DNA from: Candidatus Falkowbacteria bacterium
Lineage (GTDB): Bacteria; Patescibacteriota; Patescibacteriia; CAIXNZ01
Length of the DNA: 64,000 nucleotides
Reading direction: 5' to 3'
Assembly: GCA_963774955.1 (NCBI GenBank)
Contig: CAVZGV010000003.1
Coordinates: forward strand, 64,771 to 128,770
Under the pieces are notes generated by a model. The model saw only the letters and a program-made list of their open reading frames with translations, was not told the origin of the DNA and did no database searches. Shown here in pieces: positions 1 through 58,965 of this stretch (the first letter of the stretch is position 1; each line of letters opens with the position of its first letter). A program made the position numbers and the translations under genes.

Positions 1-1
1 G

Positions 2-1381
2 AATCAAGTTTTTTCGGCTTATATTCAGGGTAAGGTCAGTGAGGCTGCTTTAGCTGGTGAATTTGAGGAAAAAATCAGCCTCGATTTCAATGTAGCCATT
101 GATTTTGCCTATGAACTGGTGGAACAAGTGGTTCCTTTGTTGCCTGAAGATATTCAGTCAAAGCTTTTTCCTGAGTTAGCAGTAACCAAGGGGATTGATC
201 TGGCTGCGATGATTGAAAATTTGAAAAAAGAAGCCGGGATTAGTGTACCTAAAAATATGGAAGCCCGGCTGGTAGAATTGATTTATACTTGGTTTCGTGG
301 GATTCGCGATGATTGGGAGACGCTTGACCGGCTGACTTTGAGTTCCAAAATCGGGGGGTTAGGTTTGCCTTATGACCAAGCCCAGCAATTATTGTCCAGT
401 TTGAATAAAATAAAAAAAGTTGATAATGGAGAAATCCTGACGGCAATTAATAAAGAAATGGCCAGAAAATCAGCTGAGCCGGCTCTGCTGGAAGAATCGG
501 AAATTGATGTGGCGGCCAAACCCAAACCGAAAATTGAATTGGAAAAAATAACAGGACAGGAAGCAACTATCGAACAGCTTCTGGCGGATAAAGGCTTAGG
601 TTATAATGACCTGATAAAAAAAGCTTATGAAAGCCAGGCAGAACCACCGTTAGGTCACGAACCGAGCCATCTGCCGGACACTGAAGTGCCCAATTCGTTA
701 GTGGCAGAAATAAAAGAAGAAGAGGCGTTTTTAGACTCCCACGAAGAATTACCTGCGCCCAAAGAATTGCCTGTAATAAACCAAGAGTTTAAACCGCTCG
801 AACAAAAAGTTGAGTTGCCGACACCGGCCCAGGATATTTTAGAAGAATTGGGTTTGCCTCAGCCTGAACCACTCTGGAAAAAAACTCAAGCAGCTCCGGT
901 TACCCCAGAATCAGTGAAGTCAGATCCCGTACAGGCTTCTCAGTCAGCACCCGTGACGGCCTATCAGTCAGAACCAGCGCCGTCCTATCAGTCAGAACCT
1001 AAACCGCTTTATCGAAAGCCGGAAGTAAATGAAAGGCCGCGACTGGAAGATGTCAAAGGCTTTGCGACCAAATTATACGGGCCGATTGATGAATTGGGAT
1101 CCTTAAGTTTAATTGATTTTCGCCGTTTATCCAAAGATCCGCAAAAAGCCGTAGAAATTATCAGACAAAAATTGGAGGTTCTGGAAAACGATTCTTTGGA
1201 AAAAAGAGCAGCCGGCATCAAAGCTTTAAAGAACAGCCCTTTGTATAAAATTTATGCAGATATTATGAATCAGGCTTTTATGAATAATCAGTCTTATGAC
1301 AAGATTATTGCCCAAAGAGGGGATATTACTCCGGTTGAATATAAGGCGATTATGGATTTGAATAAAGGTTTGAAATATTAA
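2..1381 (+). CDS. hypothetical acidic/Pro-rich protein, 5' partial (frame open to window edge; first ATG at 119)
   Basis: ORF track 119..1381; same frame has no stop back to position 2; short internal YQSEP-type repeats; no recognisable catalytic motif. Confidence 0.45.
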   Translation, partial: NQVFSAYIQGKVSEAALAGEFEEKISLDFNVAIDFAYELVEQVVPLLPEDIQSKLFPELAVTKGIDLAAMIENLKKEAGISVPKNMEARLVELIYTWFRGIRDDWETLDRLTLSSKIGGLGLPYDQAQQLLSSLNKIKKVDNGEILTAINKEMARKSAEPALLEESEIDVAAKPKPKIELEKITGQEATIEQLLADKGLGYNDLIKKAYESQAEPPLGHEPSHLPDTEVPNSLVAEIKEEEAFLDSHEELPAPKELPVINQEFKPLEQKVELPTPAQDILEELGLPQPEPLWKKTQAAPVTPESVKSDPVQASQSAPVTAYQSEPAPSYQSEPKPLYRKPEVNERPRLEDVKGFATKLYGPIDELGSLSLIDFRRLSKDPQKAVEIIRQKLEVLENDSLEKRAAGIKALKNSPLYKIYADIMNQAFMNNQSYDKIIAQRGDITPVEYKAIMDLNKGLKY

Positions 1382-1448
1382 AAAAGTTAATCGATTTTCG
1401 TATAACGAAACGCAAGTCGAGACTGTTTAACGTAAAACGAATAAAACC

Positions 1449-1874
1449 ATGCCACTAACAGGACCGTTTTTAGTCCCACAATTTATTGACGTCGAAAGCA
1501 AAATCTTCGGGCCGATTACCACGAGGCAGTTTTTGATAATGATGGTGGCAGCGATGTTGGATTTTTTATTCTATAAGATGCTTTATGCCAATACTGCCAT
1601 AATCGTAATCGTTATTAATACCGGTCTATTTATGATAGTTGCTTTTTTAAAGATTAACGGCATGCCCTTCCATATTTTCTTTGTAAATCTGATGCAGACT
1701 TTATTGCGTTCCAGCGTAAGAATTTGGAGGCGGGTGGAAGTCACTGCTTTACCACCGGTGGAGAAAGAAGATGTTAAAAAAGAATTTGTCCCCAAAACTG
1801 CAATTCCAGAATCCAGACTTTCTTCTCTTTCCCTGACAATTAATACCGGCGGCGCTTATAAGGAAGAGGATTAG
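1449..1874 (+). CDS. small two-TM membrane protein, VirB3/PrgI-like (T4SS/conjugation-type), immediately upstream of VirB4-like ATPase
   Basis: 141 aa, two hydrophobic helices, position directly before VirB4-family gene as in Gram-positive/CPR T4SS loci. Confidence 0.45.
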   Translation: MPLTGPFLVPQFIDVESKIFGPITTRQFLIMMVAAMLDFLFYKMLYANTAIIVIVINTGLFMIVAFLKINGMPFHIFFVNLMQTLLRSSVRIWRRVEVTALPPVEKEDVKKEFVPKTAIPESRLSSLSLTINTGGAYKEED

Positions 1875-1976
1875 CGACGTGTTTTATTTGCTTCCGAATA
1901 CCCCGCATTTTTACCAGACTAGCTTTTTCACCCAGCCACCTTTTACCAATTAAATTATATATTCATATTTATTTTT

Positions 1977-4590
1977 ATGGCTTTTGCTTCCACTCAAAAA
2001 TATTTGCATATTTCCGAATTTCGTAACGACATGGTCATTCTTAAAGACGGTACTTTGAGAATGGTTATTATGTGTTCCAGTGTTAATTTTGCGCTTAAAG
2101 GTGAAGATGAACAAAGCGCTTTGATCGCCGGCTACATGGAATTTTTAAATTCCATGGATTATCCTATCCAGATTGTGATCCAGTCCAGAAAATTAGACAT
2201 TGAAGGCTATATGCGTCGTCTGCAGGAGGCGCAAAAGGCTCAAACCAATGAGTTATTGAAGACACAAATTGACGGCTATCGCGGTTATATCAATCAATTA
2301 ATTGAAATGCAGGAAATAATGACCAAGAAATTTTTTATTGTTATACCATTTAATCCGCTTGGTTCTAAAAATAAGAGTTTTTTTGCCAGGTTAAAGGAGT
2401 CTTTATTCCCGGTCCATCTTATTCGTTTACGGAAAGAAAAATTAGCTGAATACAAGGATGAAATAATGCTTAGAGCTGATAACGTGATGTCTAATTTGAG
2501 ATCAATGGGGCTTGAAGCCGTGGTCTTGGATACTCAGAGCTTAATTGAGCTTTATTATAATGTATATAATCCCAAAACCAGCCAGAATGAGAGATTAAAA
2601 GATGTCAGCCAGATGGGCTTGGAAGCTTAAATATTATTTTGAATTTATTATCTTATGCCATTAGAAATTAATCAACAAACCCAAGGCCCTCAGCCAAAAC
2701 AGCCTAAAGTGACTGCGGCGCAAATGAAAGCCCAGGAATCATCAGCGGCCAAAGGCGAGGCCATTACCTTGGAAGAAGAAAAAATTTATCGCCACGGTGT
2801 GATGGATATCAAGGATTTGATTTCCCCGGCTGCTTTTGAAGTTAAGCCGACTTATTTAATTTTAGGGGATATTTATTGTCCGAACATTTTTTGTTTTGAA
2901 TTATCCTCGCTATATTAATATTGGTTGGTTTACTCCGATTGTTAATTTGAGTAAGACCCTGGATGTGGCGATGTTTTTTTATCCGGTTAAATCAGATATG
3001 ATTTTAAAGCAACTAAAAAAAAGAGTCGGTAATATGGAAGCCCAGCTGATGTCTGATATTGAAAAAGGCGCGCCACGTGATCCGATTTTGGAAACCGGTT
3101 TGCGAGACATTGAAAAATTAAGAGATGATTTGACCCAGGGCATTGAGCAATTTTTTCAATTTGCTCTTTATATCACCATTTATGCCAAAAATATGGAGGA
3201 ACTGGAACAATTCAGCTTCGGAAATTGAATCAATATTTGGCGGTAAATTGATTTATAGTAAAAAAGTTTTTTATCAGGCGGAACAGGGCTTTAATTCTAC
3301 TATTGCCCATGGCCAATGATGAACTGATGATTTCTTTTAATATGAATACTTCGCCGGTGCGCCTCTTCTTTTCCGTTTATTTCTTCAGAATTGACCTCTG
3401 ACAACGGAATTTTATACGGGATTAATCGTCATAATAATAGTTTGATTTTTTTTGACAGATTTTCTTTGCAAAATGCCAATACGGTGGTTTTTGCCACTTC
3501 CGGTGCCGGTAAAAGTTATGCTATTAAATTGGAAGTTTTGCGTAGTTTAATGTTGGGCACTGATGTAATTATTATTGATCCGGAAAGGGAATATAAGCAT
3601 TTGTCTGAAGCTGTCGGCGGAACTTATATTGATATTTCTTTATCTTCAAAAAATAAAATTAATCCTTTTGATTTGCCTCGAGCCATTGGCGATGCCACCA
3701 CCGAAGATATTATCAGAAGCGCGGTTATTACTTTAAAAGGTTTATTGACGTTAATGCTGGGTAAACTGACAATTGAAGAAGATTCAATTTTGGATCGCGC
3801 CTTAATGGAAACTTATGCCAGTAAAGATATTACTCCCCAGTCTGATTTGGCTAAGATTGAAGCGCCGATTATGCAGGATTTGCAGAATATTTTAGACGGC
3901 ATGGAAGGCGCAAGCAATTTAAGCTTGAGGTTGAAAAAATATACCGAAGGTACTTTTTCCGGTTTATTTAACTCAGCCGACCAATGTGGATATGAAAAAT
4001 CAGTTGGTTGTTTTTTCGTCCGAGATTTGGAAGATGAATTACGGCCAATTGCTATTTACAGTATTATTAATTATATCTGGAATGTGGTTCGTTCAGAGAT
4101 TAAAAAAAGAATTTTGGTTATTGATGAAGCCTGGTGGCTGATGACTAGTGAGGATTCGGCTAAATTTATTTATGCTCTGGTTAAACGTTGTCGTAAATAT
4201 TATCTGGGCGTAACCACCATTACTCAGGATGTTAATGATTTTTTAAATAATCCTTATGGCAAGGCAATTGTGACTAATTCTTCATTGCAATTGCTTTTGA
4301 AACAATCTCCGGCTTCAATTGAAAATATCGTTAAAATATTTATGTTGACTGAGGGTGAAAAATATTTGCTTTTGGAATGCGGAGTCGGTGAAGGTATTTT
4401 TTTTGCCGGCCAGAAACATGCCGCTATTAAAATTGTGGCTTCTTATACTGAAGATCAGCTAATTACCAGTGATCCGCATCAACTTTTGGAAATTGAAGCG
4501 TCTAAACGAGAATTTGAACAGAAAAATGCAGCTGGGGAAGAAGCAGGTCAGGCTCCAAAGCGGGAAGGTGTTGAGGAAATAGCAATTTAA
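1977..4590 (+). pseudogene. virB4: VirB4/TrbE/CagE-family type IV secretion ATPase, disrupted into >=5 pieces (1977-2630, 2655-2918, 2896-3228, ~3225-3390 in two further frames, 3391-4590)
   Basis: N-terminal CagE_TrbE_VirB-like domain in 1977-2630; Walker A FATSGAGKSYAIK and Walker B VIDEAWW in 3391-4590; in-frame TAA (2628-2630) and TGA (2640-2642) plus at least three frame changes; summed length about 860 aa as expected for VirB4. Confidence 0.6.
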
Positions 4591-4623
4591 AATTATAACA
4601 GCTAATTACTAATTTTTTAATAT

Positions 4624-5280
4624 ATGGCATTGGCTCAAAATCAGGTCACCTCAAGGAAGAAAAGATCATTACTCTGGATCTTGTTGATTTTATTGTTATT
4701 AATTGCGGCTATTTTGATTTATTTGTATTTATTTTATTTTAAACCAAAACCAGTGACTGAAAATATCAATATTAATCAGAATACCAATCAGACAATTTCA
4801 CCGACTGCGCCGGCAACAACGACTTTCAATAATACAAATGCCAGCGTGTTAACGGATATTCAGGCAGCTACCGGCGGCAATCAGTCCGGTAATCAAAATG
4901 AACAGAATAATGCAATTTTAATAGCCACAGCTTTTACCGAAAGATTTGGCAGTTATTCCAATCAAAGCGATTATCGTAATTTCCAAGAGTTAGATCAGTT
5001 TATGACTGAGACGGTTAAAAAATGGGTCAGTCAGTATATCGAAGGCTTGAAAAAAGATCATGCTGATACCAATGTCTATTATGCTATTGAAACCAAGGCA
5101 ATTTCCACTCAGGTTAACAGTTTTGATGAGACAGCGGGTTTTGCTCAGATCTTAATCAGAACTCAGCGTCAGGAATTTAATAATACGATTACCAATCCCC
5201 AAATAATTTATCAGGATATGCTGTTAGAACTTATTAAAGATAATAATCAATGGAAAGTCAGGGGTGCTTATTGGCAATAA
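4624..5280 (+). CDS. hypothetical membrane-anchored protein (N-terminal TM, Asn/Gln/Thr-rich exterior)
   Basis: ORF track; single N-terminal hydrophobic helix, low-complexity N/Q/T region. Confidence 0.5.
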   Translation: MALAQNQVTSRKKRSLLWILLILLLLIAAILIYLYLFYFKPKPVTENININQNTNQTISPTAPATTTFNNTNASVLTDIQAATGGNQSGNQNEQNNAILIATAFTERFGSYSNQSDYRNFQELDQFMTETVKKWVSQYIEGLKKDHADTNVYYAIETKAISTQVNSFDETAGFAQILIRTQRQEFNNTITNPQIIYQDMLLELIKDNNQWKVRGAYWQ

Positions 5281-5317
5281 AAATAGACAGTGGTAATTAG
5301 TAAATGGTAATTGGTAC

Positions 5318-6052
5318 ATGGAAAATTTTATATTCATTTTAAACAAATTTAAAGATTTTTTTTTAAATTTAATTTTCCCGCAGGCATGCTTTGGTTGTCA
5401 GCAGGAGGGAAGTTATTTATGTTTAAAATGTTTAAATCAGATCGAATTAAATCGGGAATTTTATTGCGCGCTTTGCAAGCAAAAAAGCGACCTTGGCCTG
5501 ATTTGTCGTAATTGCAGGCAGTCTAGTGATTTGCAAGCAATTTGGGTCGCGGCAGATTATAATAATAAAATTTTGCAAGACTTGATTCATGCTTTAAAAT
5601 ATAAATATATCGAAGGTATAAGTGAAGATTTGGCTATCATTGCAGTTAAATATTTGCAGCAAGCGGATATTTTCTGCCATTTCGGAATTAATCAAACAAA
5701 TACTATTATAATTCCGGTACCTTTACATAGAAAACGTTTTTTAGCCAGAGGATTTAATCAGAGTGAATTGATTGCTGATCAAATCGGTAAGATATTAAAA
5801 CTTGATAAAGTAGACTTGCTTAAGCGTATAAAAAACACCGAAACTCAGATTAATTTAAATCGTTTGAAACGTCAAGAAAATGTTAAGGAGGCTTTTAGGC
5901 TAAGTAATTTGAAATTTGATCCAACAAAAAAAGTCATCCTAATAGATGACGTGGTAACCACGGGAAGTACTTTAAAAGAATGCGTCAAAGTTTTATCAGC
6001 AGTCGGTTATACGGAAATTTACGCTTTGGTTATAGCTCAGCGCGAAGATTGA
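5318..6052 (+). CDS. comF: ComF-family protein (double zinc-ribbon + phosphoribosyltransferase domain)
   Basis: N-terminal CxxC..CxxC..CxxC..CxxC, C-terminal PRTase motif VILIDDVVTTGSTL. Confidence 0.8.
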   Translation: MENFIFILNKFKDFFLNLIFPQACFGCQQEGSYLCLKCLNQIELNREFYCALCKQKSDLGLICRNCRQSSDLQAIWVAADYNNKILQDLIHALKYKYIEGISEDLAIIAVKYLQQADIFCHFGINQTNTIIIPVPLHRKRFLARGFNQSELIADQIGKILKLDKVDLLKRIKNTETQINLNRLKRQENVKEAFRLSNLKFDPTKKVILIDDVVTTGSTLKECVKVLSAVGYTEIYALVIAQRED

Positions 6053-6062
6053 TTATTTGGAC

Positions 6063-6079
6063 GGAGAGGGTGAGATTTG
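6063..6079. repeat. 17-nt near-exact duplicate (16/17) of the 3' end of tRNA-Ser(TGA) (6131-6147)
   Basis: ggagagggtgagatttg vs tRNA end ggagagggtgggatttg; separated by hairpin-pair element R2a. Confidence 0.7.
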
Positions 6080-6081
6080 TT

Positions 6082-6108
6082 CCGCAAAGCGGAATCCCGC
6101 TTTGCGGG
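6082..6108. repeat. hairpin-pair repeat R2a (ccgcaaagcgg-aat-cccgctttgcggg)
   Basis: two adjacent GC-rich hairpins; 25/30 identical to 10506-10532. Confidence 0.7.
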
Positions 6109-6129
6109 AAACCCTACGTTCGTGTTATT

Positions 6130-6216
6130 CGGAGAGGGTGGGATTTGAACCCACGGTCCCGTAAACGGGACTCCGGTTTTCAAGACCGGTACATTCAACC
6201 GCTCTGCCACCTCTCC
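6130..6216 (-). tRNA. tRNA-Ser (anticodon TGA), class II with long variable arm
   Basis: cloverleaf: acceptor ggagagg/cctctcc, anticodon loop cuUGAaa, T-loop ttcaaat; close to canonical bacterial tRNA-Ser. Confidence 0.85.
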
Positions 6217-6231
6217 ATAATAGGGACTTCC

Positions 6232-6327
6232 TGGCGGAGAGGGGGAGATTCGAACTCCCGCGCCGACTAAAAACGCCGACCTACAGGTTTAGCAAACCCG
6301 CCCCTTCAGCCTCTTGGGTACCTCTCC
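6232..6327 (-). tRNA. tRNA-Ser (anticodon GCT), CCA encoded
   Basis: acceptor ggagagg/cctctcc+gcca, anticodon loop ttGCTaa, T-loop ttcgaat, long variable arm. Confidence 0.85.
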
Positions 6328-6408
6328 AAAAGCCCTATTATGTCTAATATTTTATCTTAATTTAAAGAAAAAGTCAAACTTAGTACTTAATATTAACAAA
6401 TTAAATAT

Positions 6409-6918
6409 ATGCAGCAAACTCAAGATTCAAACCTAAAAAAAGGTGAATTTGGACGAATATTTTTCGAATGGCAGATTCCTGAATATACAATGCATGAAAG
6501 AAGTAATGCCTGGTATATTGTTATGGCGATTATTGGCATTGGGCTGGTAATTTATAGTATTTTTACGGCAAATTTTCTTTTTGCCTTGATTATTATTTTG
6601 GCTACCTTTGTTGTCTATTTACGGGTATATTATACTCCCAAGGACTTGTTTTTCCAGATTACTGAAGATGGCATCGTCATAGGCAATCAGTTTATTGGCT
6701 ATGAAACACTGCAAAATTTTTATATCATCTATTATCCCCCGGCGATTAAAAAGCTTTTTTTCAGACGTAAGGGAATAAATTTGACCGACATTTCAGTTCC
6801 TTTGGATAAAATAAATCCTGTTCTACTCAGAAAACAACTGCTGATTTATCTGAATGAAGATTTGGACAAAGAGCATCAAAGCGCAGCTGATTTGATTGAG
6901 ATGCTGTTTAAATTGTAA
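6409..6918 (+). CDS. hypothetical membrane protein
   Basis: ORF track; two TM helices near N-terminus; terminator hairpin at 6941-6966. Confidence 0.5.
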   Translation: MQQTQDSNLKKGEFGRIFFEWQIPEYTMHERSNAWYIVMAIIGIGLVIYSIFTANFLFALIIILATFVVYLRVYYTPKDLFFQITEDGIVIGNQFIGYETLQNFYIIYYPPAIKKLFFRRKGINLTDISVPLDKINPVLLRKQLLIYLNEDLDKEHQSAADLIEMLFKL

Positions 6919-6980
6919 AAAATAGTATTATAGGCTATAATAATTGGGGAGATGTTATGTCTCCCTTTTATATTCGTTTT

Positions 6981-7055
6981 ACGTTATTCGGTATCGGTTA
7001 ACGTTACGTTAATCGTCAACCGTTAGACGAAACGCATGTCGATACCGAATAACGA
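6981..7055. repeat. perfect 15-bp inverted repeat (cgttattcggtatcg / cgataccgaataacg) with 45-nt spacer, upstream of tRNA-Arg
   Basis: read directly; right arm overlaps motif ACGAAACGCATGTCGATAC shared with 1396-1446. Confidence 0.6.
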
Positions 7056-7067
7056 ACAACCGATTTA

Positions 7068-7139
7068 GTCCTCGTAGTTCAACGGATAGAACACAAGATT
7101 GCGGATCTTGTGATCCAGGTTCGATTCCTGGCGAGGGCA
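7068..7139 (+). tRNA. tRNA-Arg (anticodon read as GCG)
   Basis: acceptor gtcctcg/cgagggc, D-stem gttc/gaac, anticodon stem caaga/tcttg, loop ttGCGga, T-arm ccagg-ttcgatt-cctgg. Confidence 0.65.
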
Positions 7140-7147
7140 TACGTGGT

Positions 7148-7182
7148 TCTCCGCCGAAGGCGGATCCGCCTCTGGCGGAGAT
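7148..7182. repeat. hairpin-pair repeat R1a (ccgccgaaggcgg-at-ccgcctctggcgg)
   Basis: 34/37 identical to 10334-10366; lies between tRNA-Arg 3' end and its 17-nt duplicate. Confidence 0.7.
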
Positions 7183-7196
7183 TCCTGGTGAGGGCA
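7180..7196. repeat. 17-nt duplicate (16/17) of tRNA-Arg 3' end (7123-7139)
   Basis: gattcctggtgagggca vs gattcctggcgagggca. Confidence 0.7.
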
Positions 7197-7301
7197 TAAA
7201 TAAGTTTAAAGTTTAAAGTCAAAAGTTAAAAGTTTGGAAGATATATTTTAAAAAAATCCAAATACTGCTTCGCGGCATAACTTAGGAATAATAATTTCAA
7301 G

Positions 7302-9404
7302 ATGTATTCCTTAAGTGCTCCCATAGAAAATTTAACCCGGGTCGGTAAAACTACGGCCGGTCGTTTAAAAAGATTAGGCATTGCCACGGTCAATGACCTG
7401 CTTTTTTATTTTCCGTTCCGTTATGAGGATTTTAGTCAGGTGGTTAAAATAAATGATTTGCGGCCCAACCAGACAGTTACTATTAAAGGTAAGATTGTTT
7501 TGATTGAAAATAGGAGAGCCCATCGTCGCCGTATGACTATTACCGAGGCTTTGATTGAAGATGAAACCGGTTCAATTCAAGTTATCTGGTTTAATCAGCC
7601 TTTTTTAATAAAAAATTTAAAACCCGGTGATGAAGTTTTTATTGCCGGCACTACGGAGATAAATAATTTGTCCCTGCAGTTTACTTCACCGGCCTATGAA
7701 AAAATTACAGGCGGTGACAGCCTTAATACGGCTAAAATTGTACCGGTTTATCCCTTGACCAGCAATTTAACGCAAAAGCAATTGAGATTTTTAGTTAAAG
7801 TTGCTTTGGACTCGGTTAATCTGGTTAAAGAATGGCTGCCCAGGGAAATTTTGGATAAAAATAATTTAATGCCTTTGGCTCAAGCTTTGGCGGACATTCA
7901 TTTTCCGGCTAGTTTTGAGGTTCAGGCGCAGGCTCGTTATCGTTTTAAATTTGATGAGCTTTTTTTAATTGCCTTGCAAAGCCAGAGACTGCGTCAGTAT
8001 TTGGCTCAAACCAAAGCCCCGCAGATTGCGTTTAAAGAGCAGGAGATTAAAAATTTTGTCAGCAGTTTGCCTTTTACTTTGACCGCTGATCAGAAAAAAG
8101 CAGCCTGGCAAATCCTTTTAGATCTGGAAAAATCTCAGCCGGCCAACCGTTTGCTGGAAGGGGATGTCGGATCAGGCAAAACCGTGGTCGCAGCCATGGC
8201 CATTTTAAATACGGTTTTAAATGATTTTCAGGCGGTTTTAATGGCACCGACTGAAATTTTGGCCAGGCAACATTACAATGGAATCAAAACTTTATTAGCG
8301 CCGTTTAAAATTAAAACAGTTTTATTAACGAGCAGCGAAAAAGTATACTTTGACGGTCAGCAAGAAATTGTCGGGAAACATGAAGTTTTGAATTTGGTCA
8401 AAAACGGTAAGGCCCAATTAATAATCGGCACCCATGCTTTAATTCAGGATGAAGTTGAGTATAAGAATTTGGGTTTAGTCATTGTGGATGAGCAACATCG
8501 TTTCGGCGTGGAACAAAGGAAAACATTAAAAGATAAAAATAAAAACGGGTTGACACCTCATTTTATATCCATGACTGCTACGCCGATTCCCCGTTCGCTG
8601 GCTTTGATTTTATACGGCGATTTGGATTTATCCATGATTAAGGAAATGCCCAAGGGCCGTAAAAAAATTATTACCCGCCTGGTTGCTGAATCCGACCGGC
8701 AGCAGGCTTATCAGTTTATCAGGCAGGAAATTAATAACGGGCGTCAGGTTTTTGTCATTTGTCCCTTGATTGATCCTTCTGATAAATTGGGAGTCAAGTC
8801 AGTGACCGAAGAATTTAAAAAACTGGATAAGGAGATTTTTCCGGATCTCAAAATCGGTTTATTGCACGGCAAATTGAAAGGCAAGGAAAAAGAAGCAATT
8901 ATGGCCGACTTTAAAGCTAATGAAATTAAAATGCTGGTTTCCACTTCAGTGATTGAAGTCGGTATTGATATTCCCAATGCTACGATTATGATGATTGAAG
9001 GCGCGGATCGTTTCGGCCTGGCGCAATTACACCAGTTTCGCGGTCGGGTCGGCAGGGGAGAATACCAGTCTTATTGTTTCTTATTTGCGGAAAATTATCC
9101 CGCTAAACGGGATGCCGCTTCGCGGCATAATCCCAAGACTAGGGAAAGGCTGGAAGCCTTGGTTAAATCCAATGACGGTTTTGCTTTGGCTGAATATGAT
9201 CTTAAATTTCGCGGGCCTGGTGAGGTTTACGGCTCACGCCAATCTGGTTTGCCTGAATTACAGATTGCCAGTCTGACTGATTTGGAGTTGATTAATCTGA
9301 CCAAGGAACAGGCTAAGACTTTTTTTACTCAATATAAACTCGAAGATTTCCCTTGGCTTAAGGCTAAATTGGCTGAGAATAAACTGATTGATCATTTGGA
9401 ATAA
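7302..9404 (+). CDS. recG: ATP-dependent DNA helicase RecG
   Basis: 700 aa; N-terminal wedge domain, Walker A GDVGSGKT, DEQH box VIVDEQHRFG, conserved C-terminus TDGFALAEYDLKFRGPGE. Confidence 0.85.
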   Translation: MYSLSAPIENLTRVGKTTAGRLKRLGIATVNDLLFYFPFRYEDFSQVVKINDLRPNQTVTIKGKIVLIENRRAHRRRMTITEALIEDETGSIQVIWFNQPFLIKNLKPGDEVFIAGTTEINNLSLQFTSPAYEKITGGDSLNTAKIVPVYPLTSNLTQKQLRFLVKVALDSVNLVKEWLPREILDKNNLMPLAQALADIHFPASFEVQAQARYRFKFDELFLIALQSQRLRQYLAQTKAPQIAFKEQEIKNFVSSLPFTLTADQKKAAWQILLDLEKSQPANRLLEGDVGSGKTVVAAMAILNTVLNDFQAVLMAPTEILARQHYNGIKTLLAPFKIKTVLLTSSEKVYFDGQQEIVGKHEVLNLVKNGKAQLIIGTHALIQDEVEYKNLGLVIVDEQHRFGVEQRKTLKDKNKNGLTPHFISMTATPIPRSLALILYGDLDLSMIKEMPKGRKKIITRLVAESDRQQAYQFIRQEINNGRQVFVICPLIDPSDKLGVKSVTEEFKKLDKEIFPDLKIGLLHGKLKGKEKEAIMADFKANEIKMLVSTSVIEVGIDIPNATIMMIEGADRFGLAQLHQFRGRVGRGEYQSYCFLFAENYPAKRDAASRHNPKTRERLEALVKSNDGFALAEYDLKFRGPGEVYGSRQSGLPELQIASLTDLELINLTKEQAKTFFTQYKLEDFPWLKAKLAENKLIDHLE

Positions 9405-9585
9405 GACCAGATAGTTTCTTAAATTTGTATAGATTTTATTGGGCGGATACCGAAAGCCACCGAAATCAGGCCGCGCATGACAAAGGCGGATAGATCTTGA
9501 CAATAGTTTTTAAATTTAATAGGATTAAAATATGATTCCGGATGGTCCGGAATCAATATAAATTCAATAAGGAGGGGGCACAGAC

Positions 9586-10219: not shown

Positions 10220-10921
10220 TTATATTTTGGATACAAAAGGATTGTCCCTGAGATAAAAGCGCCAGGGTTTATGCTTGTAAGCGCCGGCGTAATCAACACC
10301 AATGCGTTTTGCACTTTGTATTTGAGAAGGTTTTCCGCCGGAGGCGGATCCGCCCTTGGCGGATATTTTTTCCTTGGGATTTTCAGCCAGATAAAGCTTG
10401 GGACTGGTAATGATATTTACCCCGTTTAATTTTTTATCAATTTTTAAGGCCTGGCAGAGTTTGGCCGAACCATTGGTAAGTACAGTATAAAGTCTAAAGT
10501 CTAGGCCGCGAAGCGGCATCCCGCAACGCGGGAAAGTTAAAAGTTTGGAATTTTTTATCTTAAGTTTACGATTTTTATACATTTGTTTAATGCCGGCGAC
10601 AGGTTCCAGGGCGCGGATTAAGATGGCGGCAGGGAAGTCCTTGGCTTCGGTTACAATATTAAAGCAATAATACATACCATAAACCAGATAAATATAAGCT
10701 GTACCCGGCTGGTCAAACATAATTTTGGTGCGTTCAGTTTTGCCGCGGGACGCATGTGAAGCTTTATCTTTCGGCCCGTAATAGGCCTCGGTTTCGACAA
10801 TTTTACCAATTAAAATATTTTTACCGTCTTGCCGCAGCAGGTATTTGCCCAAAAGTGCTTGAGCCAGCTTAAAGGTATTTTGTTTAAAAAAATTTGCGTT
10901 TAAACGTCGGTAGTTTGACAT
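10220..10921 (-). CDS. mpg: DNA-3-methyladenine glycosylase (Mpg/AAG family) carrying two in-frame repeat-derived insertions
   Basis: N-terminal ETEAYYGPKDKASHA...YIYLVYGMYYCFN, C-terminal RIGVDYA...WRFYL; about 35 aa longer than typical; extra segments coincide with repeats at 10334-10366 and 10487-10560. Confidence 0.75.
   Translation of the reverse strand: MSNYRRLNANFFKQNTFKLAQALLGKYLLRQDGKNILIGKIVETEAYYGPKDKASHASRGKTERTKIMFDQPGTAYIYLVYGMYYCFNIVTEAKDFPAAILIRALEPVAGIKQMYKNRKLKIKNSKLLTFPRCGMPLRGLDFRLYTVLTNGSAKLCQALKIDKKLNGVNIITSPKLYLAENPKEKISAKGGSASGGKPSQIQSAKRIGVDYAGAYKHKPWRFYLRDNPFVSKI
10334..10366. repeat. hairpin-pair repeat R1b, in frame inside mpg (encodes KGGSASGGK)
   Basis: tccgccggaggcggatccgcccttggcggatat; matches R1a. 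Confidence 0.7.
10487..10560. repeat. composite repeat inside mpg coding sequence: aaagtctaaagtcta + hairpin pair R2b (10506-10532) + aaagttaaaagtttggaa
   Basis: flanks match 7201-7246 (same flanks without the hairpin pair); R2b matches R2a. Confidence 0.65.
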
Positions 10922-11243: not shown

Positions 11244-12583
11244 TTATATAACTTTCTTGATGGCCTGTTCCAGATTTTTTACAGGTACTAATTCTTTTTG
11301 TGAGGGTGCGGTTTTGCCAACCGGTATGATAATTTTCTTAAAGTTTAGTTTCAAGGCCTCTTCGATTCTTTTGTCCAGCTGGTAAACCGGCCGGATTTCA
11401 CCACCCAAGCCGACTTCGCCCAAAATCAGGGTTTGCGGGTCAATAGCTTTGTTTTTTAGGGAAGAAACAATAGCCAGGCAAACTGCCAGGTCAGCGCCGG
11501 TTTCGTTGATTTTAAGGCCCCCAGTGACGTTTAAATGGATATCCTGGTTGAGCAAGGGTACATCAGCCCGTTTAATTAGGACAGCTGCCAGCATTTGCAG
11601 TCGATTCAAATCATAGCCTGAACTTCGTCTTTGCGGGTAGCCAAACATGGTTTTGGTAACCAGCGCCTGGACTTCAATCAAAAACGGCCGACTGCCTTCC
11701 ATAATGCAAGTCAGAGCAGAACCGGAAATAGGCGTCTGATTGATGCGGTAGAAAAAGTTCTGAGGGATTTTTTACTTCCAGCAGGCCGCTTGAGCTCATG
11801 CTGAATATGCCGATTTCCTGGGTTGAGCCAAATCGGTTTTTGGCGCAGCGCAGTGAGCCGAAAATCATCCGAAGTTGAACTTTCCAAATACATGACTGCA
11901 TCAACCAGATGTTCCAGTGATTTGGGACCGGCGACCTGGCCGTCTTTAGTCACATGACCGATGATTAGAATGGCGATATTATATTTTTTGGCTATTTCTA
12001 AAAGTTTAACCGTACAAATCCTGACCTGATTAATTGATCCGGCCTCGGAAGGAAGTTCATTAGAATATAAGGTTTGGATGGAATCAATGATAATTAAACT
12101 TGGTTTTTCTTCGACTGCAAATCCGGTAATTTTTTCAACGTTGTTTTCGGCCAGAAATTTTAATTTGGGAAAATCCAGATTAAGCCGGTCAATTCTCATT
12201 TTTATCTGGGAGGCTGATTCTTCACCGGAAACATAAAGAATGGGGGACTGGAGCTGATGGCAGAGTTGTAAAACCAGGGTTGATTTGCCGATGCCGGGTT
12301 CGCCGCCCAGCAGGATTAAACTGCCGGCGACAATACCGCCGCCCAAGACGCGGTCAAATTCGCCGATCTTAGTTTGCAAACGTTCGAATTTGGGAGTGGC
12401 TGAAGTTTTAAAGTCAATGAGTTGGGATTTATCTACCTTTATAGTTGTCATTTGAATTTTGTCATTTGTCATTTCTTCGGCTATGGTTCCCCAGGCGCTG
12501 CAAGTCGAACAGCGCCCAGTCCACTTGGGATACTGGGCGCCGCATTTTGAGCAAGCGTATATTGTCTGAGGTTGTTTAGACAT
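11244..12583 (-). CDS. radA: DNA repair protein RadA, interrupted by two frameshifts in this sequence (pieces 12583-11711, about 11904-11760, 11702-11244)
   Basis: N-terminal zinc ribbon [18 protein letters not shown], Walker [16 protein letters not shown] motif in a second frame, Lon-like C-terminal domain in a third. Confidence 0.75.
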
Positions 12584-12589
12584 GATGGT

Positions 12590-12782
12590 TATTTATTCAA
12601 CCCCCTCTTTGATTCTCCCCCTAATCATAGGGGGAGAGTGCGGGAATATCGGATTTTCCGTAAACACCCCTCCTTACAAAGGAGGGGATCGGGGGAGGTT
12701 CTCGGATACTTTATCAACTCCCTCCCACCTTCGCTAAAGCTACTGTGGGCTAGCTGTATCTCCCTCTAATCTTAGAGGGAGA
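12590..12782. repeat. GC-rich three-hairpin tail of DUF559 copy 1 (C' 12614-12637, B' 12667-12687, A' 12759-12782)
   Basis: perfect 9-10 bp stems tctccccctaatcatagggggaga, cccctccttacaaaggagggg, tctccctctaatcttagagggaga; homologous to 31851-32011. Confidence 0.75.
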
Positions 12783-13175
12783 TTCCGGAAGTGCAGGCTG
12801 AGTTTTGATTTTACGATCGTTTATTTCCTTACAAAGACAATATAGTTCCTCAACCACTGAATCAATATCTTCAAAGATTTGGTGATTCCAATATCTTTTT
12901 ACAATAATTCCGCAATCTTGTAAATATTTATCCCTGATTTTATCTCTATTAATATTCTTTTGTAGGGTATGAATATCACCGTCTAATTCAATCGCTAATT
13001 TTAATTCAGGGCAATAGAAATCTACTATATAGTATCCAATCCCATATTGCCGACGGAATTTGTATCCTAACTTTTTGTTTCTTAATTCTTTCCAGAGTGT
13101 AACTTCAGCTGGAGTCATTTTTTCCCTTAATATTCTTCTTTTCGTTTTATGCAATTTTAAATTAAACAATTGCAT
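12750..13175 (-). CDS. DUF559 (Vsr/restriction-endonuclease-like fold) domain protein, copy 1
   Basis: 141 aa, signature FRRQY..YIVDFYCPELKLAIELDGDIH; about 65% aa identity to 31458-31889. Confidence 0.75.
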   Translation of the reverse strand: MQLFNLKLHKTKRRILREKMTPAEVTLWKELRNKKLGYKFRRQYGIGYYIVDFYCPELKLAIELDGDIHTLQKNINRDKIRDKYLQDCGIIVKRYWNHQIFEDIDSVVEELYCLCKEINDRKIKTQPALPESPSKIRGRYS

Positions 13176-29231: not shown

Positions 29232-30339
29232 ATGATTACAACTGTATTAATTTTTCTGATTGTTTTAGGTATTTTAGTGCTGGTTCACGAACTGGGACAT
29301 TTTTGCACTGCCAAATTAATGGGCATGAAGATTTACGAATTTGGTATCGGCTTTCCACCGAAAATCTGGAGCAAAAAGGGTAAAGACGGGGTGATTTACT
29401 CGATTAATTCTATACCTTTGGGCGGTTTTGTTAATTTAAGGGAAACAGAATCAGAGGCTTCTGATCCCAATAGTTTTATCAATAAGAAACCATGGAAAAG
29501 GGCCGTCGTTATTTTAGCCGGCGTAGCCATGAATTTTTTATTATGCGTTGTTTTGCTTTCATTTGGTTTTATGTTTGGCCTACCGCAGTCAGTGGATCAG
29601 GATGCGCTTAATTCCGGAATTGTAAAAGATTATAAAATTCAGGTGGTGACTGTTTTAGATGATAAACCAGCCAAAACTGCAGGAGTTGAAATCGGCGATG
29701 TGCTGCTGGCTGTTGATGACCAGAAATATTGCCAGTGTTAAGGATTTGGTTGTGTATACCAGTACTAAAATAGGGACGAAAGTTAATTTTAAATTTTTGC
29801 ATGAAAAAGAGGAAGTAACCAAGGAAATTGAAATTGCAGAATTGGAAAAAGGCAAGGGCGGTATTGGTGTTGGCTTGGTGGAAACCGGGATTGTTTCTTA
29901 TCCGGTTCATTTGGCTGTTTGGCACGGTGTGAAATTAACTTTGGCGCTAACTAAGGAATTTATTTTTGCTTTTGCCAATATTATAAAGAATTTAGTCATT
30001 GGCCAGCCAATCGGCGTCCAGGTTTCCGGTCCGGTCGGTATTGCGGTTTTAACCGGTCAGGTAGCCAAATTGGGTATAATTTATTTACTGCAATTTACGG
30101 CTTTACTCTCATTAAATTTGGCGATTATCAATGCGATACCGTTTCCGGCTTTTGACGGCGGTCATTTAGTCTTTATTATAATTGAAAAAATTCGCCGCAA
30201 GCCTGTTGATAAGAAAATTGAGGGTATAATTCATACTATTGGGTTTTCTTTGTTAATGCTATTGATTATTGTTATTACTTTTCAGGATATTTTAAGGTAT
30301 AGTCATTTTTTTAGTAATTTTTTCAGTAATTTGATTTAA
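29232..30339 (+). CDS. rseP: RseP-like site-2 protease (M50), interrupted by one frameshift near 29710-29740
   Basis: HELGHFCTAK HExxH, PDZ segment, C-terminal NLAIINAIPFPAFDGGH; two overlapping ORFs in frames 0 and 1 rejoin as ...VLLAVDDQK|IASVKDLVVY. Confidence 0.75.
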
Positions 30340-30409: not shown

Positions 30410-31450
30410 ATGGAATTAAAATTCAAAGAACTCAAAGAGCAGGCCTTGAAGGAGATTCAGGCGATTCGCAATTCGGAAGAGTGGCAGCAGATTGAGAATA
30501 AGTATTTTTCCAGAAAAAGCGGGGAATTGGCCAAGCTTTTGAAAGATCTCAAGGATGTTTCCGAGGATTTGCGTCCGAAAATTGGCGCGGTTGCCAATGA
30601 AATAAAAAATGAAATCAGTAAGGCTTTGGAACAAAAAAAAGTCAGATTTGAATTTGGATATTGATGAGGATTTGGAACATGATTTTATTGATGTAACTTT
30701 AGAAATTGAAAAATATAAGCTTGGTCATTTGCATCCTTTGACTCAGGTGCAAATGGAACTGGAAGATATTTTTAAATCCATGGGTTTTATGATTTTGGAC
30801 GGTCCGGAGCTGGAATCGGATTATTATAATTTTGAAGCTTTAAATCTTCCGTCTTGGCATCCGGCTCGTGATATGCAGGATACTTTTTATATTGATCCCA
30901 AGACTGTGAACGGCACGGAAAATTTGCTTATGCGCACTCAAACTTCACCGGTACAAGTGCGGGCAATGCAAAAATATGGCGCGCCTTTGCGTTGTGTGAT
31001 GCCCGGCCGTTGTTTTCGTAATGAAGCCACTGATGTGCGTCATGAACATACTTTTTATCAGATGGAAGGCTTGATGATTGATAAAAATATTTCTTTTAAT
31101 GATATGTGCGGTGTTTTTGGAAACAGTGGCTAAAGAATTATACGGAGATGACACTAAATTAAGATTGCGACCAAAATATTATCCTTTTGTGGAGCCGGGT
31201 GTTAACGGAGAAGTGACTTGTTTTTTGTGCCATGGCAAAGGTTGTAAATTATGCAAACAGACCGGCTGGCTGGAAATCGTCGGCGCGGGCATGGTTCATC
31301 CCAATGTTTTGAAAGCCGGCAATGTTGACCCCAATAAATATCAGGGTTTTGCTTTTGGTTTTGGCTTAACCGGTTGGTGATGCTGAAATACAATATTGAC
31401 GATGCCAGGTTATTGCAGAGTGGGGATTTACGTTTCTTAAACCAATTTTA
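30410..31450 (+). CDS. pheS: phenylalanine--tRNA ligase alpha subunit, interrupted by three single-nt frameshifts (about 30640, about 31100, about 31378)
   Basis: class II motifs across four frames: N-terminal helix, [28 protein letters not shown]-terminal [20 protein letters not shown]. Confidence 0.8.
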
Positions 31451-31889: not shown

Positions 31890-32030
31890 TCGGGTAACCC
31901 GAATTCCCCGAATACCCCGAGAACCTCCCCCGAACCCCTCCTTTGTAAGGAGGGGAGATTGCGGGGAATGCCGTGACCACTAAGGATTCTCCCCCTTAGA
32001 CAAGGGGGAGACAAAGAGGGGGGGGTAAAT
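31851..32030. repeat. GC-rich three-hairpin tail of DUF559 copy 2 (A 31851-31874, B 31935-31955, C 31988-32011)
   Basis: A tctccctctaagattagagggaga overlaps ORF 3' end (encodes SPSKIRGRY); B identical to copy-1 B'; spacers also conserved. Confidence 0.75.
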
Positions 32031-58884: not shown

Positions 58885-58965
58885 CCCTTCGACTCGCCTT
58901 GCTCGCTCAGGGCAGGCCTTGAAGTAGTCTTTAAAAGGCTTTTTGTTCTTTCGATATTTGTAAAT

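What the first reader, a model, noticed from the sequence alone, without database searches (positions are those of the whole stretch)
6059..7200. Hairpin-pair mini-elements sit between tRNA 3' ends and 17-nt duplicates of those ends
At tRNA-Ser(TGA), on the minus strand, the tRNA 3' terminus ggagagggtgggatttg (6131-6147) is repeated 16/17 at 6063-6079. Between the two copies lie 51 nt containing the tandem hairpins ccgcaaagcgg/cccgctttgcggg. At tRNA-Arg the terminus gattcctggcgagggca (7123-7139) is repeated 16/17 at 7180-7196. Between those copies lie 40 nt containing ccgccgaaggcgg-at-ccgcctctggcgg. The same 17-nt duplication of a tRNA 3' end appears at two independent tRNAs, each around a different member of a hairpin-pair repeat family. 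That points to site-specific insertion or excision scars. Possible mechanisms are integrase att-core duplication left after loss of an element, or a MITE-like element that targets tRNA ends.
Basis: seen in the sequence. Interest (0 to 1): 0.75.

Follow-up and report, generated by a model that had tools for sequence, protein, structure and literature searches.

The report
Mobile 30-base double-hairpin insertion family
The duplicated tRNA ends are real, but each belongs to a short spare copy of the tRNA's tail that is split in its T-loop by a 30-base GC-rich double hairpin, and the same hairpin also sits in-frame inside genes here and in at least 120 environmental contigs, so it looks like a very small, apparently undescribed selfish insertion and not an integrase scar.

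Summary
tRNA-Ser(tga) and tRNA-Arg(gcg) are each followed by a 17/18 or 18/19 copy of their 3' end, with a hairpin pair in between.

The anatomy differs from the first description:
- Each insert is exactly 30 nt: two abutting 15-nt hairpins that together form a near-palindrome centred on GGATCC.
- The 5-9 nt on its other side (GGTTC; CGTAGGGTT) copy the 5' half of the T-arm.
- So the hairpin pair interrupts the T-loop of a redundant terminal fragment that lies next to the intact gene.

Three more copies lie in-frame inside RecG and a 3-methyladenine glycosylase. The RecG site is empty in a sister genome, a precise 30-nt difference. An exact-stem pattern found at least 120 metagenome contigs. 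Most of those copies are read as SAxGGSAxGG and sit at TT|AA sites.

The fragment anatomy recurs at other tRNAs, in T-, D- and anticodon loops and at both 3' and 5' ends. Relatives carry empty tRNA sites. No integrase or transposase is present in the 64 kb.

Best reading: a miniature palindromic insertion family. Copies in tRNA genes survive only inside a short tandem duplication. The enzyme and the duplication mechanism are unknown. I found no prior description.

The parts
6130..6217 (-). Intact tRNA-Ser(tga), the inner, functional copy
   Evidence: ARAGORN 6129-6217; Rfam tRNA 62.3 bits at 6130-6216
6119..6129 (-). 11-nt spacer (aataacacgaa on the - strand) between the tRNA-Ser end and the fragment
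   Evidence: Sequence. Its origin is unresolved and it is not clearly a copy of the native flank.
6110..6118 (-). Interior piece X' of the redundant Ser fragment. On the - strand it reads cgtagggtt and copies tRNA cgtgggtt (5' strand of the T-stem plus the first T-loop bases).
   Evidence: Sequence comparison. Five nt are exact next to the insert and three more match across a 1-nt gap.
6080..6109 (.). 30-nt double hairpin (HP30), TTCCGCAAAGCGGAA|TCCCGCTTTGCGGGA, inside the T-loop of the Ser fragment
   Evidence: Fold -21.6 kcal/mol, z -5.7. Absent from L144, L145, L146 and L148 at this tRNA.
6062..6079 (-). Terminal piece R of the Ser fragment: T-loop 3' half, T-stem 3' strand, acceptor 3' strand and discriminator; 17/18 identical to the tRNA
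7068..7139 (+). Intact tRNA-Arg(gcg)
   Evidence: 66 bits
7140..7149 (+). tacgtggttc, the junction plus interior piece X' of the Arg fragment (ggttc matches tRNA ccaggttc)
   Evidence: In L148 the orthologous piece ataaaggttc matches atctaggttc at 8 of 10-11 positions.
7150..7179 (.). HP30 TCCGCCGAAGGCGGA|TCCGCCTCTGGCGGA inside the T-loop of the Arg fragment
   Evidence: An orthologous copy is present in L001, L144 and L148. All stems pair in every copy and there is one compensatory pair.
7180..7198 (+). Terminal piece R of the Arg fragment (18/19 identical to the tRNA), contiguous with the native 3' flank aataagtt...
   Evidence: L145 has tRNA-Arg followed directly by cc-aataagttcaaa.
9098..9127 (.). 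HP30 copy in-frame inside RecG, read as PAKRDAASRH
   Evidence: There is a 10-residue gap against Thermotoga RecG 1gm5. The site is empty in L001: gaaaattat|aatccg. RecG is 690 aa in L145, L146 and L148 against 700 aa here.
10334..10363 (.). HP30 copy in-frame in the 3-methyladenine DNA glycosylase gene (- strand), read as SAKGGSASGG
   Evidence: There is a 10-residue gap against human AAG. The copy is shared with L148/P0024 and P0023 and absent from other relatives of about 70% identity.
10504..10533 (.). HP30-like copy (GGCCGCGAAGCGGCA|TCCCGCAACGCGGGA) in-frame in the same glycosylase gene, read as PRCGMPLRGL, set in an AAAGTYT heptamer array
9536..9552 (.). Single T...A GC-rich hairpin unit in the RecG-DksA spacer. 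Its membership of the family is uncertain.
   Evidence: L001 has a different hairpin at the same place.

Best explanation
Both loci are instances of one phenomenon: a family of 30-nt GC-rich near-palindromic double-hairpin insertions, called HP30 here.

What HP30 is (shown):
- Its consensus with flanks is tTT-TCCGCC-nnA-GGCGGA|TCCGCC-Tnn-GGCGGA-AAa.
- Variants keep the T-stem-loop-stem-A design but use other GC stems.
- It populates this Parcubacteria/Buchananbacteria-like lineage and many other uncultivated bacteria.
- It enters DNA as a precise 30-nt block at T-rich|A-rich sites, with at most 2 nt of target duplication.
- It is stop-free in all six frames.
- It persists mainly in-frame in protein genes, as an SAxGGSAxGG decapeptide.

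What happens at tRNA genes (shown):
- HP30 is found only inside a redundant terminal fragment of the gene that lies directly outside the intact gene.
- The fragment is a short tandem copy of the last or first 20-60 nt of the gene.
- HP30 splits its T-, D- or anticodon loop.
The GGTTC / CGTAGGGTT block on the other side of the hairpins is the inner half.
- The outer copy is a relic that stays contiguous with the native flank.

What is inferred:
- An insertion into the loop of an essential single-copy tRNA gene is tolerated only if a short tandem duplication leaves one intact copy.
- The duplication most likely arises in the same replication or repair event as the insertion. One possibility is that a hairpin-containing 5' flap resists removal and is ligated. 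Another is a misaligned template switch at the hairpin.
- Survivorship then does the rest.
- The enzyme that moves HP30 is unknown.
For: Anatomy in the window.

Insertion character:
- 10-residue gaps fall exactly at the three CDS copies in alignments to solved RecG and AAG structures.
- The three copies are read in three different frames.
- The RecG site is empty in sister L001.
- L068 is empty and L095/L123 are filled at ccggtat|aaaaccgg.

Distribution:
- Contig GC ranges from 0.28 to 0.72.

Target and frame:
- T at -2 in 83% of copies and A at +2 in 85%.
- 99 of 128 copies lie in open frames of at least 120 codons.
- 79 of 97 junctions are in phase 0, against 43-44% for matched TT/AA control sites.

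Same fragment anatomy elsewhere:
- L047 Ser(gga), T-loop; L038 Tyr, anticodon loop; L079 Val, L139 and L142, D-loop.
- L063 Lys and L140 Thr, with other hairpin types.
- L144 and L148 Arg, with fragments on both sides and tandem units.

Phylogeny of the loci:
- The Arg unit is present in the window, L001, L144 and L148. The site is empty in L145, L146/L147 and L013, where the native flank follows the tRNA directly.
- The Ser unit is present only in the window.

Duplication tied to HP30: flanking direct repeats of at least 10 nt occur at 22 of 125 copies, against 2.5 expected.

DNA-level duplication: the upstream Arg fragments in L148 include about 6 nt of non-tRNA flank.

Lineage specificity: hairpin units are enriched only in the window, L001, L144 and L148 among syntenic relatives.

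No integrase or transposase in the window.
Against: - No mobilising enzyme was found, and only 64 kb of a contig of about 565 kb was inspected.
- The link between duplication and insertion is inferred from anatomy. Spacers of 4-55 nt between the gene and the fragment are not clearly copies of the native flank in every case (Ser in the window, L038, L079), so a simple tandem duplication does not fit all loci.
- Fragments without a hairpin also exist: L115, and the 5' repeats of L140. Duplications can therefore arise or persist without HP30.
- The idea that HP30 targets hairpin loops in general was tested and not supported.
- The Arg-trailer stems are fully conserved across four genomes while the adjacent relic has diverged. 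This could mean a host function and not selfishness.
- The metagenome sample was selected with an exact-stem pattern, so stem conservation within that sample says nothing.
Confidence: 0.7

Rival explanations
1. Integrase att scars. A tRNA-integrating element (prophage, ICE or CIME) carried a copy of the tRNA 3' end. Nearly all of it was later lost, leaving attL/attR core duplicates with a hairpin remnant between them.
For: The duplicated block starts in the T-loop and runs to the 3' end. From my own knowledge of tRNA-gene att sites, that is one of the classic crossover sublocations. L006 (Saccharibacteria) has a 21-nt 3'-end duplicate about 100 nt from tRNA-Val that could be of this type.
Against: - No integrase or recombinase in 64 kb.
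- The 30-mer interrupts a fragment that continues 5-10 nt on its other side.
- The same anatomy occurs with 5' fragments and with D- and anticodon loops.
- The 'remnant' is the same 30-nt sequence found in CDSs and in more than 120 unrelated contigs.
- L148 has three tandem 56-nt units.
Confidence: 0.04
2. A tRNA-end-specific miniature element. The hairpin pair is a MITE that recognises tRNA 3' ends and generates a 17-19-nt target-site duplication on insertion.
For: Two tRNAs in the window show a 17-19-nt direct repeat around the hairpins. 22 of 125 copies elsewhere have flanking repeats of at least 10 nt.
Against: - Clean filled/empty pairs show no target duplication.
- Most copies are in CDSs far from tRNAs.
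- In the tRNA cases, 8-20 nt that include a copy of the interior T-arm lie between the left repeat and the hairpins, which a simple TSD does not produce.
- Repeat lengths range from 7 to 36 nt.
Confidence: 0.08
3. A host-functional trailer. The hairpins and the pseudo-T-arm after tRNA-Arg and tRNA-Ser form an evolved 3'-trailer structure (a processing, stability or termination signal), and the duplicate is part of that RNA.
For: In the Arg locus the 38 nt of X' plus HP30 are identical between the window and L001, while the relic end differs at 3 of 17 positions plus an indel, and coding DNA is about 85% identical. Across four genomes the stems pair in every copy, with one compensatory change, while the loops vary. 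The trailer folds at -30.3 kcal/mol, z -3.9.
Against: - The site is empty in L145, L146 and L013 and the Ser unit is unique to the window, so it is dispensable.
- The same 30-mer sits inside CDSs.
- No U-tract follows the hairpin; the flanks are TTT before and AAA after in either orientation.
- Palindromes can keep perfect arms through intrastrand templated correction, without selection (my own knowledge of quasipalindrome mutagenesis).
- This rival is compatible with co-option after insertion, so it is not exclusive of the best explanation.
Confidence: 0.12
4. Duplication first, hairpin later. Short tandem duplications of tRNA termini arise spontaneously and are normally lost. HP30 happens to land in the spare loop, a good TTC|RA target, and stabilises the duplicate by breaking its homology.
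For: Fragments without a hairpin exist: L115, and the 5' repeats of L140. The T-loop sequence fits the TT|AA-type target. L148 shows that the units can amplify by slippage.
Against: It requires a very high insertion rate into a transient target of about 27 nt. The interior pieces are confined to 4-11 nt, which suggests a mechanistic link. No hairpin-free fragment is seen at the Arg or Ser loci in seven relatives.
Confidence: 0.15

Closest known systems
Rickettsia palindromic elements (RPE)
   Same: Palindromic selfish DNA that inserts in-frame into protein-coding genes and is tolerated as an extra peptide. No transposase of its own. This comparison rests on my own knowledge; the papers returned were not read.
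   Different: RPEs are about 100-150 bp and confined to Rickettsia. HP30 is 30 nt, occurs in Patescibacteria-type and other environmental contigs, and is accompanied at tRNA genes by terminal-fragment duplications.
Mitochondrial double-hairpin elements, yeast mitochondrial GC clusters, sponge repetitive hairpin-forming elements
   Same: Short GC-rich single or double hairpins dispersed in AT-richer genomes, found in intergenic regions, rRNA and coding genes, with presence/absence polymorphism between close relatives. The enzyme is unknown. (Literature lists; PMC2800124 read.)
   Different: Those are organellar. HP30 is bacterial, has a fixed 30-nt (2 x 15) architecture with T...A termini, a strong reading-frame bias, and the tRNA-fragment anatomy.
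REP / REPIN elements mobilised by RAYT (Y1 HUH) transposases, and IS200/IS605-derived palindrome-associated elements
   Same: Short GC-rich palindromes, often as inverted doublets. Insertion without target duplication is expected for single-strand HUH transposition (my own knowledge).
   Different: REPs are extragenic and carry a conserved 5' GTAG-type tetranucleotide. HP30 is mostly intragenic and has no such motif. No Y1 transposase domain was found among the window's ORFs.
tRNA-gene att duplications of integrative elements, and the repeated tRNA 3'-end segments distal to E. coli tyrT
   Same: A partial copy of a tRNA 3' end lies just outside an intact tRNA gene. Tandem units each ending in the tRNA's last 17-19 nt (L148) recall the tyrT distal repeats (my own knowledge).
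   Different: No integrase is present. The fragments include the interior side of a loop, can be 5' fragments, and are split by a dispersed 30-nt palindrome.
Hairpin-stabilised flap ligation or template-switch duplications (yeast rad27/FEN1 mutants; repeat-expansion models)
   Same: Short tandem duplications of 5-100 nt are generated when a structured 5' flap escapes nuclease removal. This would yield [X-R][X-hairpin-R], as observed. It is only a mechanistic analogy, from my own knowledge.
   Different: Not demonstrated here. The two window loci have opposite polarity only 1 kb apart, which a purely lagging-strand model does not predict.

Membership tests
Integrase att-site duplication (genomic island / CIME remnant) | A tyrosine or serine integrase gene in or next to the element | tested here: not met
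   Pfam scan of about 60 ORFs covering the 64-kb window found no integrase, resolvase or transposase domain. The rest of the genome was not tested.
Integrase att-site duplication (genomic island / CIME remnant) | Two att cores flank element DNA, and the identity block starts at the crossover and runs only to the 3' end of the tRNA | tested here: not met
   The fragment continues 5-10 nt on the other side of the 30-mer. 5' fragments split in D- and anticodon loops also occur.
MITE (miniature inverted-repeat transposable element) | Terminal inverted repeats | tested here: met
   The whole 30-mer is a near-perfect palindrome (TCCGCC...GGCGGA ends).
MITE (miniature inverted-repeat transposable element) | Fixed-length target-site duplication | tested here: not met
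   RecG filled versus empty shows a precise 30-nt difference with at most 2 nt of ambiguity. L068 versus L095/L123 shows none. Flanking repeats, where present, vary from 7 to 36 nt.
MITE (miniature inverted-repeat transposable element) | A parent autonomous element with matching ends | not tested
   None is present in the window.
REP/REPIN-RAYT system | A RAYT (Y1_Tnp) gene in the genome | tested here: inconclusive
   Absent from the 64-kb window. The remaining ~500 kb of the source contig was not available.
REP/REPIN-RAYT system | Extragenic location and a conserved 5' tetranucleotide beside the hairpin | tested here: not met
   99 of 128 copies lie in long open frames. The flank consensus is TTT|...|AAA, not GTAG.
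Rickettsia palindromic elements | In-frame insertion into coding genes, tolerated as an extra peptide | tested here: met
   10-residue gaps against solved homologues. 79 of 97 junctions are in phase 0.
Rickettsia palindromic elements | Sequence or size relationship (about 100-150 bp, RPE-1 to RPE-8 consensus) | tested here: not met
   The element is 30 nt. No sequence comparison with RPE consensus sequences was run, so size alone excludes membership.
Mitochondrial double-hairpin / GC-cluster elements | Two adjacent GC-rich hairpins dispersed in an AT-richer genome, with insertion polymorphism | tested here: met
   (17 units against 0.3-1.4 in shuffles; window GC 39.7%).
Mitochondrial double-hairpin / GC-cluster elements | Organellar host and shared sequence family | tested here: not met
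   The host is a Patescibacteria-type bacterium: L001 is Candidatus Parcubacteria and L148 is Candidatus Buchananbacteria.

The most novel reading that the evidence does not exclude
HP30 is a protein-independent, or host-replisome-driven, self-propagating palindrome, the smallest mobile DNA known in bacteria. Its insertion chemistry intrinsically produces a short tandem copy of the target, so that it can enter essential structured genes such as tRNAs without killing the cell. The stem-conserved copies in tRNA trailers have been co-opted as processing or stability signals.
Probability: 0.15. Interest if true: 0.85.

Novelty: new variant of a known kind. Interest (0 to 1): 0.6.

Why it matters
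If this holds, Patescibacteria-type genomes, which are tiny, streamlined and mostly uncultivated, carry a very small mobile insertion.
- It repeatedly adds a flexible decapeptide to proteins and remodels the flanks of tRNA genes.
- That affects gene calling, protein-family alignments (10-residue indel hot spots) and tRNA annotation in MAGs.
- It provides a natural system for asking how a 30-nt palindrome can move without a recognisable transposase.
- The recurrent 'intact gene plus hairpin-split terminal fragment' anatomy is a directly testable signature of how insertions into essential structured RNA genes are survived.

Tried and rejected
- General targeting of hairpin loops. After removing HP30, the junction lies in a predicted hairpin loop in 32% of copies against 35% of TT/AA control sites. 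Only strong stems of at least 6 bp are mildly enriched, 9.4% against 5.4%. Rejected as a rule.
- Integrase or transposase in the window: none.
- Association with the two DUF559/Vsr-like endonuclease genes or with the PDDEXK_3 nuclease: 1 and 3 homologues respectively in about 0.8 Mb of HP30-bearing loci. No support.
- RNA-templated origin of the fragments, suggested because their ends coincide with mature tRNA ends. Rejected because there is no CCA, the upstream fragments include about 6 nt of non-tRNA flank, and spacers vary from 0 to 55 nt.
- Intrinsic-terminator role. No U-tract follows the hairpins.
- Rfam. Nothing other than tRNAs reaches significance in 5950-7320.
- Literature. No paper holds the core sequence except as a BamHI primer site, and none describes such elements in CPR/Patescibacteria.
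- Extending beyond the window through exact-protein look-ups failed. Two further look-ups returned no DNA.
- Concerted evolution of the relic with the tRNA. Two parallel changes are suggestive, but the ancestral state is ambiguous, so nothing is claimed.
Full report
**1. Checking the observation**

ARAGORN and Rfam place tRNA-Ser(tga) at 6130-6217 (-), tRNA-Ser(gct) at 6232-6327 (-) and tRNA-Arg(gcg) at 7068-7139 (+). The 3' end of tRNA-Ser(tga) is repeated at 6062-6079 with 17/18 identity. The 3' end of tRNA-Arg is repeated at 7180-7198 with 18/19 identity, 2 nt past the discriminator. Such matches did not occur in 20,000 shuffles of the flanks, and about 1e-6 to 1e-7 are expected per locus.

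**2. Anatomy**

Three points change the picture.

First, each insert is exactly 30 nt (6080-6109 and 7150-7179). It is made of two abutting 15-nt units, T plus a 5-bp GC stem, a 3-nt loop, the stem complement and A. Together they form a near-perfect palindrome centred on GGATCC or GGAATCC. As RNA it folds equally well as one long hairpin.

Second, the bases on the tRNA-proximal side of the 30-mer are not random. In Arg, ggttc precedes the insert, and in the tRNA ggttc precedes the duplicated gattcc... block. In Ser, read on the - strand, cgtagggtt precedes the insert, against cgtgggtt in the tRNA. The downstream copy is therefore a fragment of the tRNA that spans the T-loop, and the 30-mer sits inside that loop. 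The layout is: gene...X-R, then an optional spacer, then X'-[30-mer]-R.

Third, a scan for abutting hairpins found three more 30-mers in the window, at 9098-9127, 10334-10363 and 10504-10533. All lie inside ORFs.

**3. The hairpin pair behaves as inserted DNA**

- The ORFs that carry the extra copies are RecG and a 3-methyladenine DNA glycosylase.
- Alignments to solved structures show 10-residue gaps exactly at the 30-mers.
- The three copies are read in three different frames (PAKRDAASRH, SAKGGSASGG, PRCGMPLRGL). What is conserved is therefore the DNA hairpin, not a peptide.
- A sister genome, L001 (Candidatus Parcubacteria MAG, RecG 88% identical), has the RecG site empty. It reads gaaaattat|aatccg, against gaaaattat-[30 nt]-aatccc here. 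This is a precise 30-nt difference with at most 2 nt of possible target duplication.
- RecG is 690 aa in three further relatives and 700 aa here.

**4. A large dispersed family**

Contig GC ranges from 0.28 to 0.72.
- Flanks are strongly biased: T at -2 in 83% of copies and A at +2 in 85%, with consensus TTT|HP|AAA.
- Loop positions show a conserved inner A and T.
- 99 of 128 copies lie in open frames of at least 120 codons, and most are read as SAxGGSAxGG.
- After removing the insert, 79 of 97 junctions are in codon phase 0, against 43-44% for matched TT/AA control sites. This points to filtering at the protein level.
- A second filled/empty pair appears inside another repeat. L068 has ccggtataaaaccgg, while L095 and L123 have ccggtat-[HP30]-aaaaccgg.
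- In the window, T...A GC-rich hairpin units number 17, against 0.3-1.4 in shuffles.
- Among syntenic relatives, these units are enriched only in the window, L001, L144 and L148.

**5. The tRNA anatomy recurs**

Among the fetched loci the same arrangement appears repeatedly: an intact tRNA plus an adjacent terminal fragment of that same tRNA, with hairpins in a loop.

| Locus | tRNA | Loop split | Fragment |
|---|---|---|---|
| L047 | Ser(gga) | T-loop | 3' fragment |
| L038 | Tyr | anticodon loop | 36-nt 5' half plus 10 nt interior, upstream of the gene |
| L079 | Val | D-loop | 5' fragment |
| L139 | not called by ARAGORN | D-loop | 5' fragment |
| L142 | Arg-like | D-loop | 5' fragment |
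| L063 | Lys | T-loop | 3' fragment, with a different hairpin pair |
| L140 | Thr | T-loop | 3' fragment, with a nest of five or six hairpin units |

The interior piece is always short, 4-11 nt. The outer end lies at or a few nt beyond the gene end. The fragment is always on the side of the gene whose end it copies.

About 8 of 138 hairpin pairs in the fetched loci are of this kind. tRNA genes plus 60-nt margins make up under 1% of that DNA.

**6. History of the two window loci**

I used the membrane protein between the tRNAs to fetch syntenic relatives.

The Arg unit is present in four genomes:
- the window;
- L001;
- L144;
- L148 (Candidatus Buchananbacteria RBG_13_39_9), which has three tandem 56-nt units.

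In L145, L146/L147 and L013 the tRNA is followed directly by the native flank, aataagtt... in L145. The outer copy is thus contiguous with the native flank. It is a relic of the original end that no longer co-evolves with the T-stem.

L144 and L148 also have one and two 5' fragments of tRNA-Arg upstream. Each reads gtcctcgtagtt-[hairpin pair]-caatgga(t) and includes about 6 nt of non-tRNA flank. That points to DNA-level tandem duplication and not to copying from tRNA.

The Ser(tga) unit exists only in the window and is absent from L144, L145, L146 and L148. Its state in L001 is unknown, because that contig starts downstream of the tRNA-Ser genes. The events are therefore of different ages, which fits continuing activity.

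Across the four filled Arg loci:
- all 12 stem pairs are kept in every copy, with one compensatory C-G to A-T change;
- the loops vary (GAA/TCT, AAG/TCC, AAA/TCT);
- the relic end has 3-5 changes in 17 nt.

**7. Mechanism**

Shown:
- HP30 is inserted DNA with a TT|AA preference and no fixed target duplication.
- It lives mainly in-frame in genes.
- At tRNA genes it is found only in a redundant terminal fragment.

Also shown: flanking direct repeats of at least 10 nt are about nine times more frequent around HP30 than at control positions (22 of 125 against 2.5). Many copies lie in short AT-rich tandem arrays.

Inferred:
- An HP30 insertion in the loop of a single-copy tRNA gene is viable only if a short tandem duplication of the region spanning the insertion point leaves an intact copy.
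- The narrow 4-11-nt interior piece, and the absence of hairpin-free fragments at these loci in seven relatives, suggest that duplication and insertion arise in one replication or repair event.
- Two candidate events are ligation of a hairpin-containing flap that resists nuclease removal, and a misaligned template switch at the hairpin.
- I put this last step at about 0.3.

The alternative is that the duplication comes first and the hairpin lands in the spare loop and stabilises it. This remains possible, because L115 and L140 show fragments without hairpins.

The moving enzyme is unknown. The window has no integrase, recombinase or transposase. The two DUF559 endonuclease genes and the PDDEXK nuclease show no association.

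**8. Comparison with known systems**

- Integrase att scars fail three defining features: no integrase, fragments that continue beyond the insert, and 5'-fragment and other-loop cases.
- A tRNA-specific MITE with a target-site duplication fails on target specificity and on the duplication.
- REP/RAYT fails on location and flank motif. A RAYT gene was not seen, but most of the genome was not inspected.

The closest functional analogues are:
- Rickettsia palindromic elements, which give in-frame coding insertions;
- mitochondrial double-hairpin elements, GC clusters and sponge hairpin elements.

HP30 is much smaller than RPEs, is bacterial, and adds the tRNA-fragment anatomy.

Full-text searches found no description of the sequence or of such elements in CPR/Patescibacteria. 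Absence from that library is not proof of novelty.

**9. Verdict**

The tRNA-specific and integrase readings are not supported.
- I classify HP30 as a new variant of a known kind, the miniature palindromic selfish insertions, with an unexplained and recurrent tRNA-healing duplication.
- Interest is about 0.6.

Noticed in passing
window 6967-7067: About 100 nt of leader upstream of tRNA-Arg, rich in AACG/CGTT and forming a long imperfect hairpin. It is about 99% identical to L001 although neighbouring coding DNA is about 85% identical. There is no Rfam match. Similar TAAACG/AAACGW-rich blocks flank the tRNA-Ser genes in L144 and L145. It may be a regulatory element, an ncRNA or another repeat family.
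   Followed up: partly
window 58540-58565 and 58886-58911: A 26-nt repeat, CCTTCGACTCGCYTYGCTCGCTCAGG, lies upstream of tRNA-Thr(ggt) and just after tRNA-Tyr. Peptides of the same kind (CHPELSRR... in one orientation...PSTKLRMT in the other) occur as in-frame insertions in many Patescibacteria glycosylase homologues. This looks like a second mini-insertion family.
   Followed up: partly
window 7203-7238 and 10485-10549: AT-rich heptamer arrays (AAAGTYT), including an exact 17-mer, AAAGTTAAAAGTTTGGA, at 7222-7238 and 10533-10549. One array lies after the tRNA-Arg unit. The other lies inside the glycosylase CDS and surrounds a hairpin pair. Similar arrays flank many HP30 copies in other contigs.
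   Followed up: partly
window 12750-13175 (-) and 31458-31889 (+): Two DUF559 / Vsr-like endonuclease genes, 66% identical, lie downstream of RadA and PheS. Each is followed about 100 nt later by a CCCCCT-N6-AGGGGG hairpin (12617-12634; 31991-32008). They look like copies of a small selfish cassette.
   Followed up: partly
window 11244-12583; 29232-30339; 30609-31380; 1977-4590: Several housekeeping genes are split into two ORFs: RadA, the M50 protease, PheS and probably the VirB4/TraC-like ATPase. These may be frameshifts from sequencing error, or real pseudogenisation or recoding. Relatives have single ORFs (for example RadA of 444 aa).
   Followed up: no
window 10220-10921 (-) and homologues P0021-P0080: The 3-methyladenine glycosylase of this clade is an indel hot spot. 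Homologue lengths run from 186 to 255 aa, and several different inserted peptides occupy the segment between EPxxG and LTNGPxKLC.
   Followed up: partly
L148 (rc coordinates 2830-3230): In Candidatus Buchananbacteria RBG_13_39_9, tRNA-Arg is preceded by two tandem 5'-fragment units and followed by three tandem 56-nt [X'-hairpin pair-3' end] units. This is a small array that grew by unit duplication.
   Followed up: yes
L140 6466-6640: The 3' fragment of tRNA-Thr has five or six hairpin units packed into its T-loop position, including one hairpin inserted in the loop of another. The tRNA's first 26 nt are also repeated three times with 24-nt spacers and no hairpins.
   Followed up: partly
window 1-5300: A type IV secretion/conjugation-like cluster (PrgI, TraC-like, TraG P-loop ATPase) lies directly upstream of ComF. 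Its synteny is conserved in relatives L144-L148.
   Followed up: no
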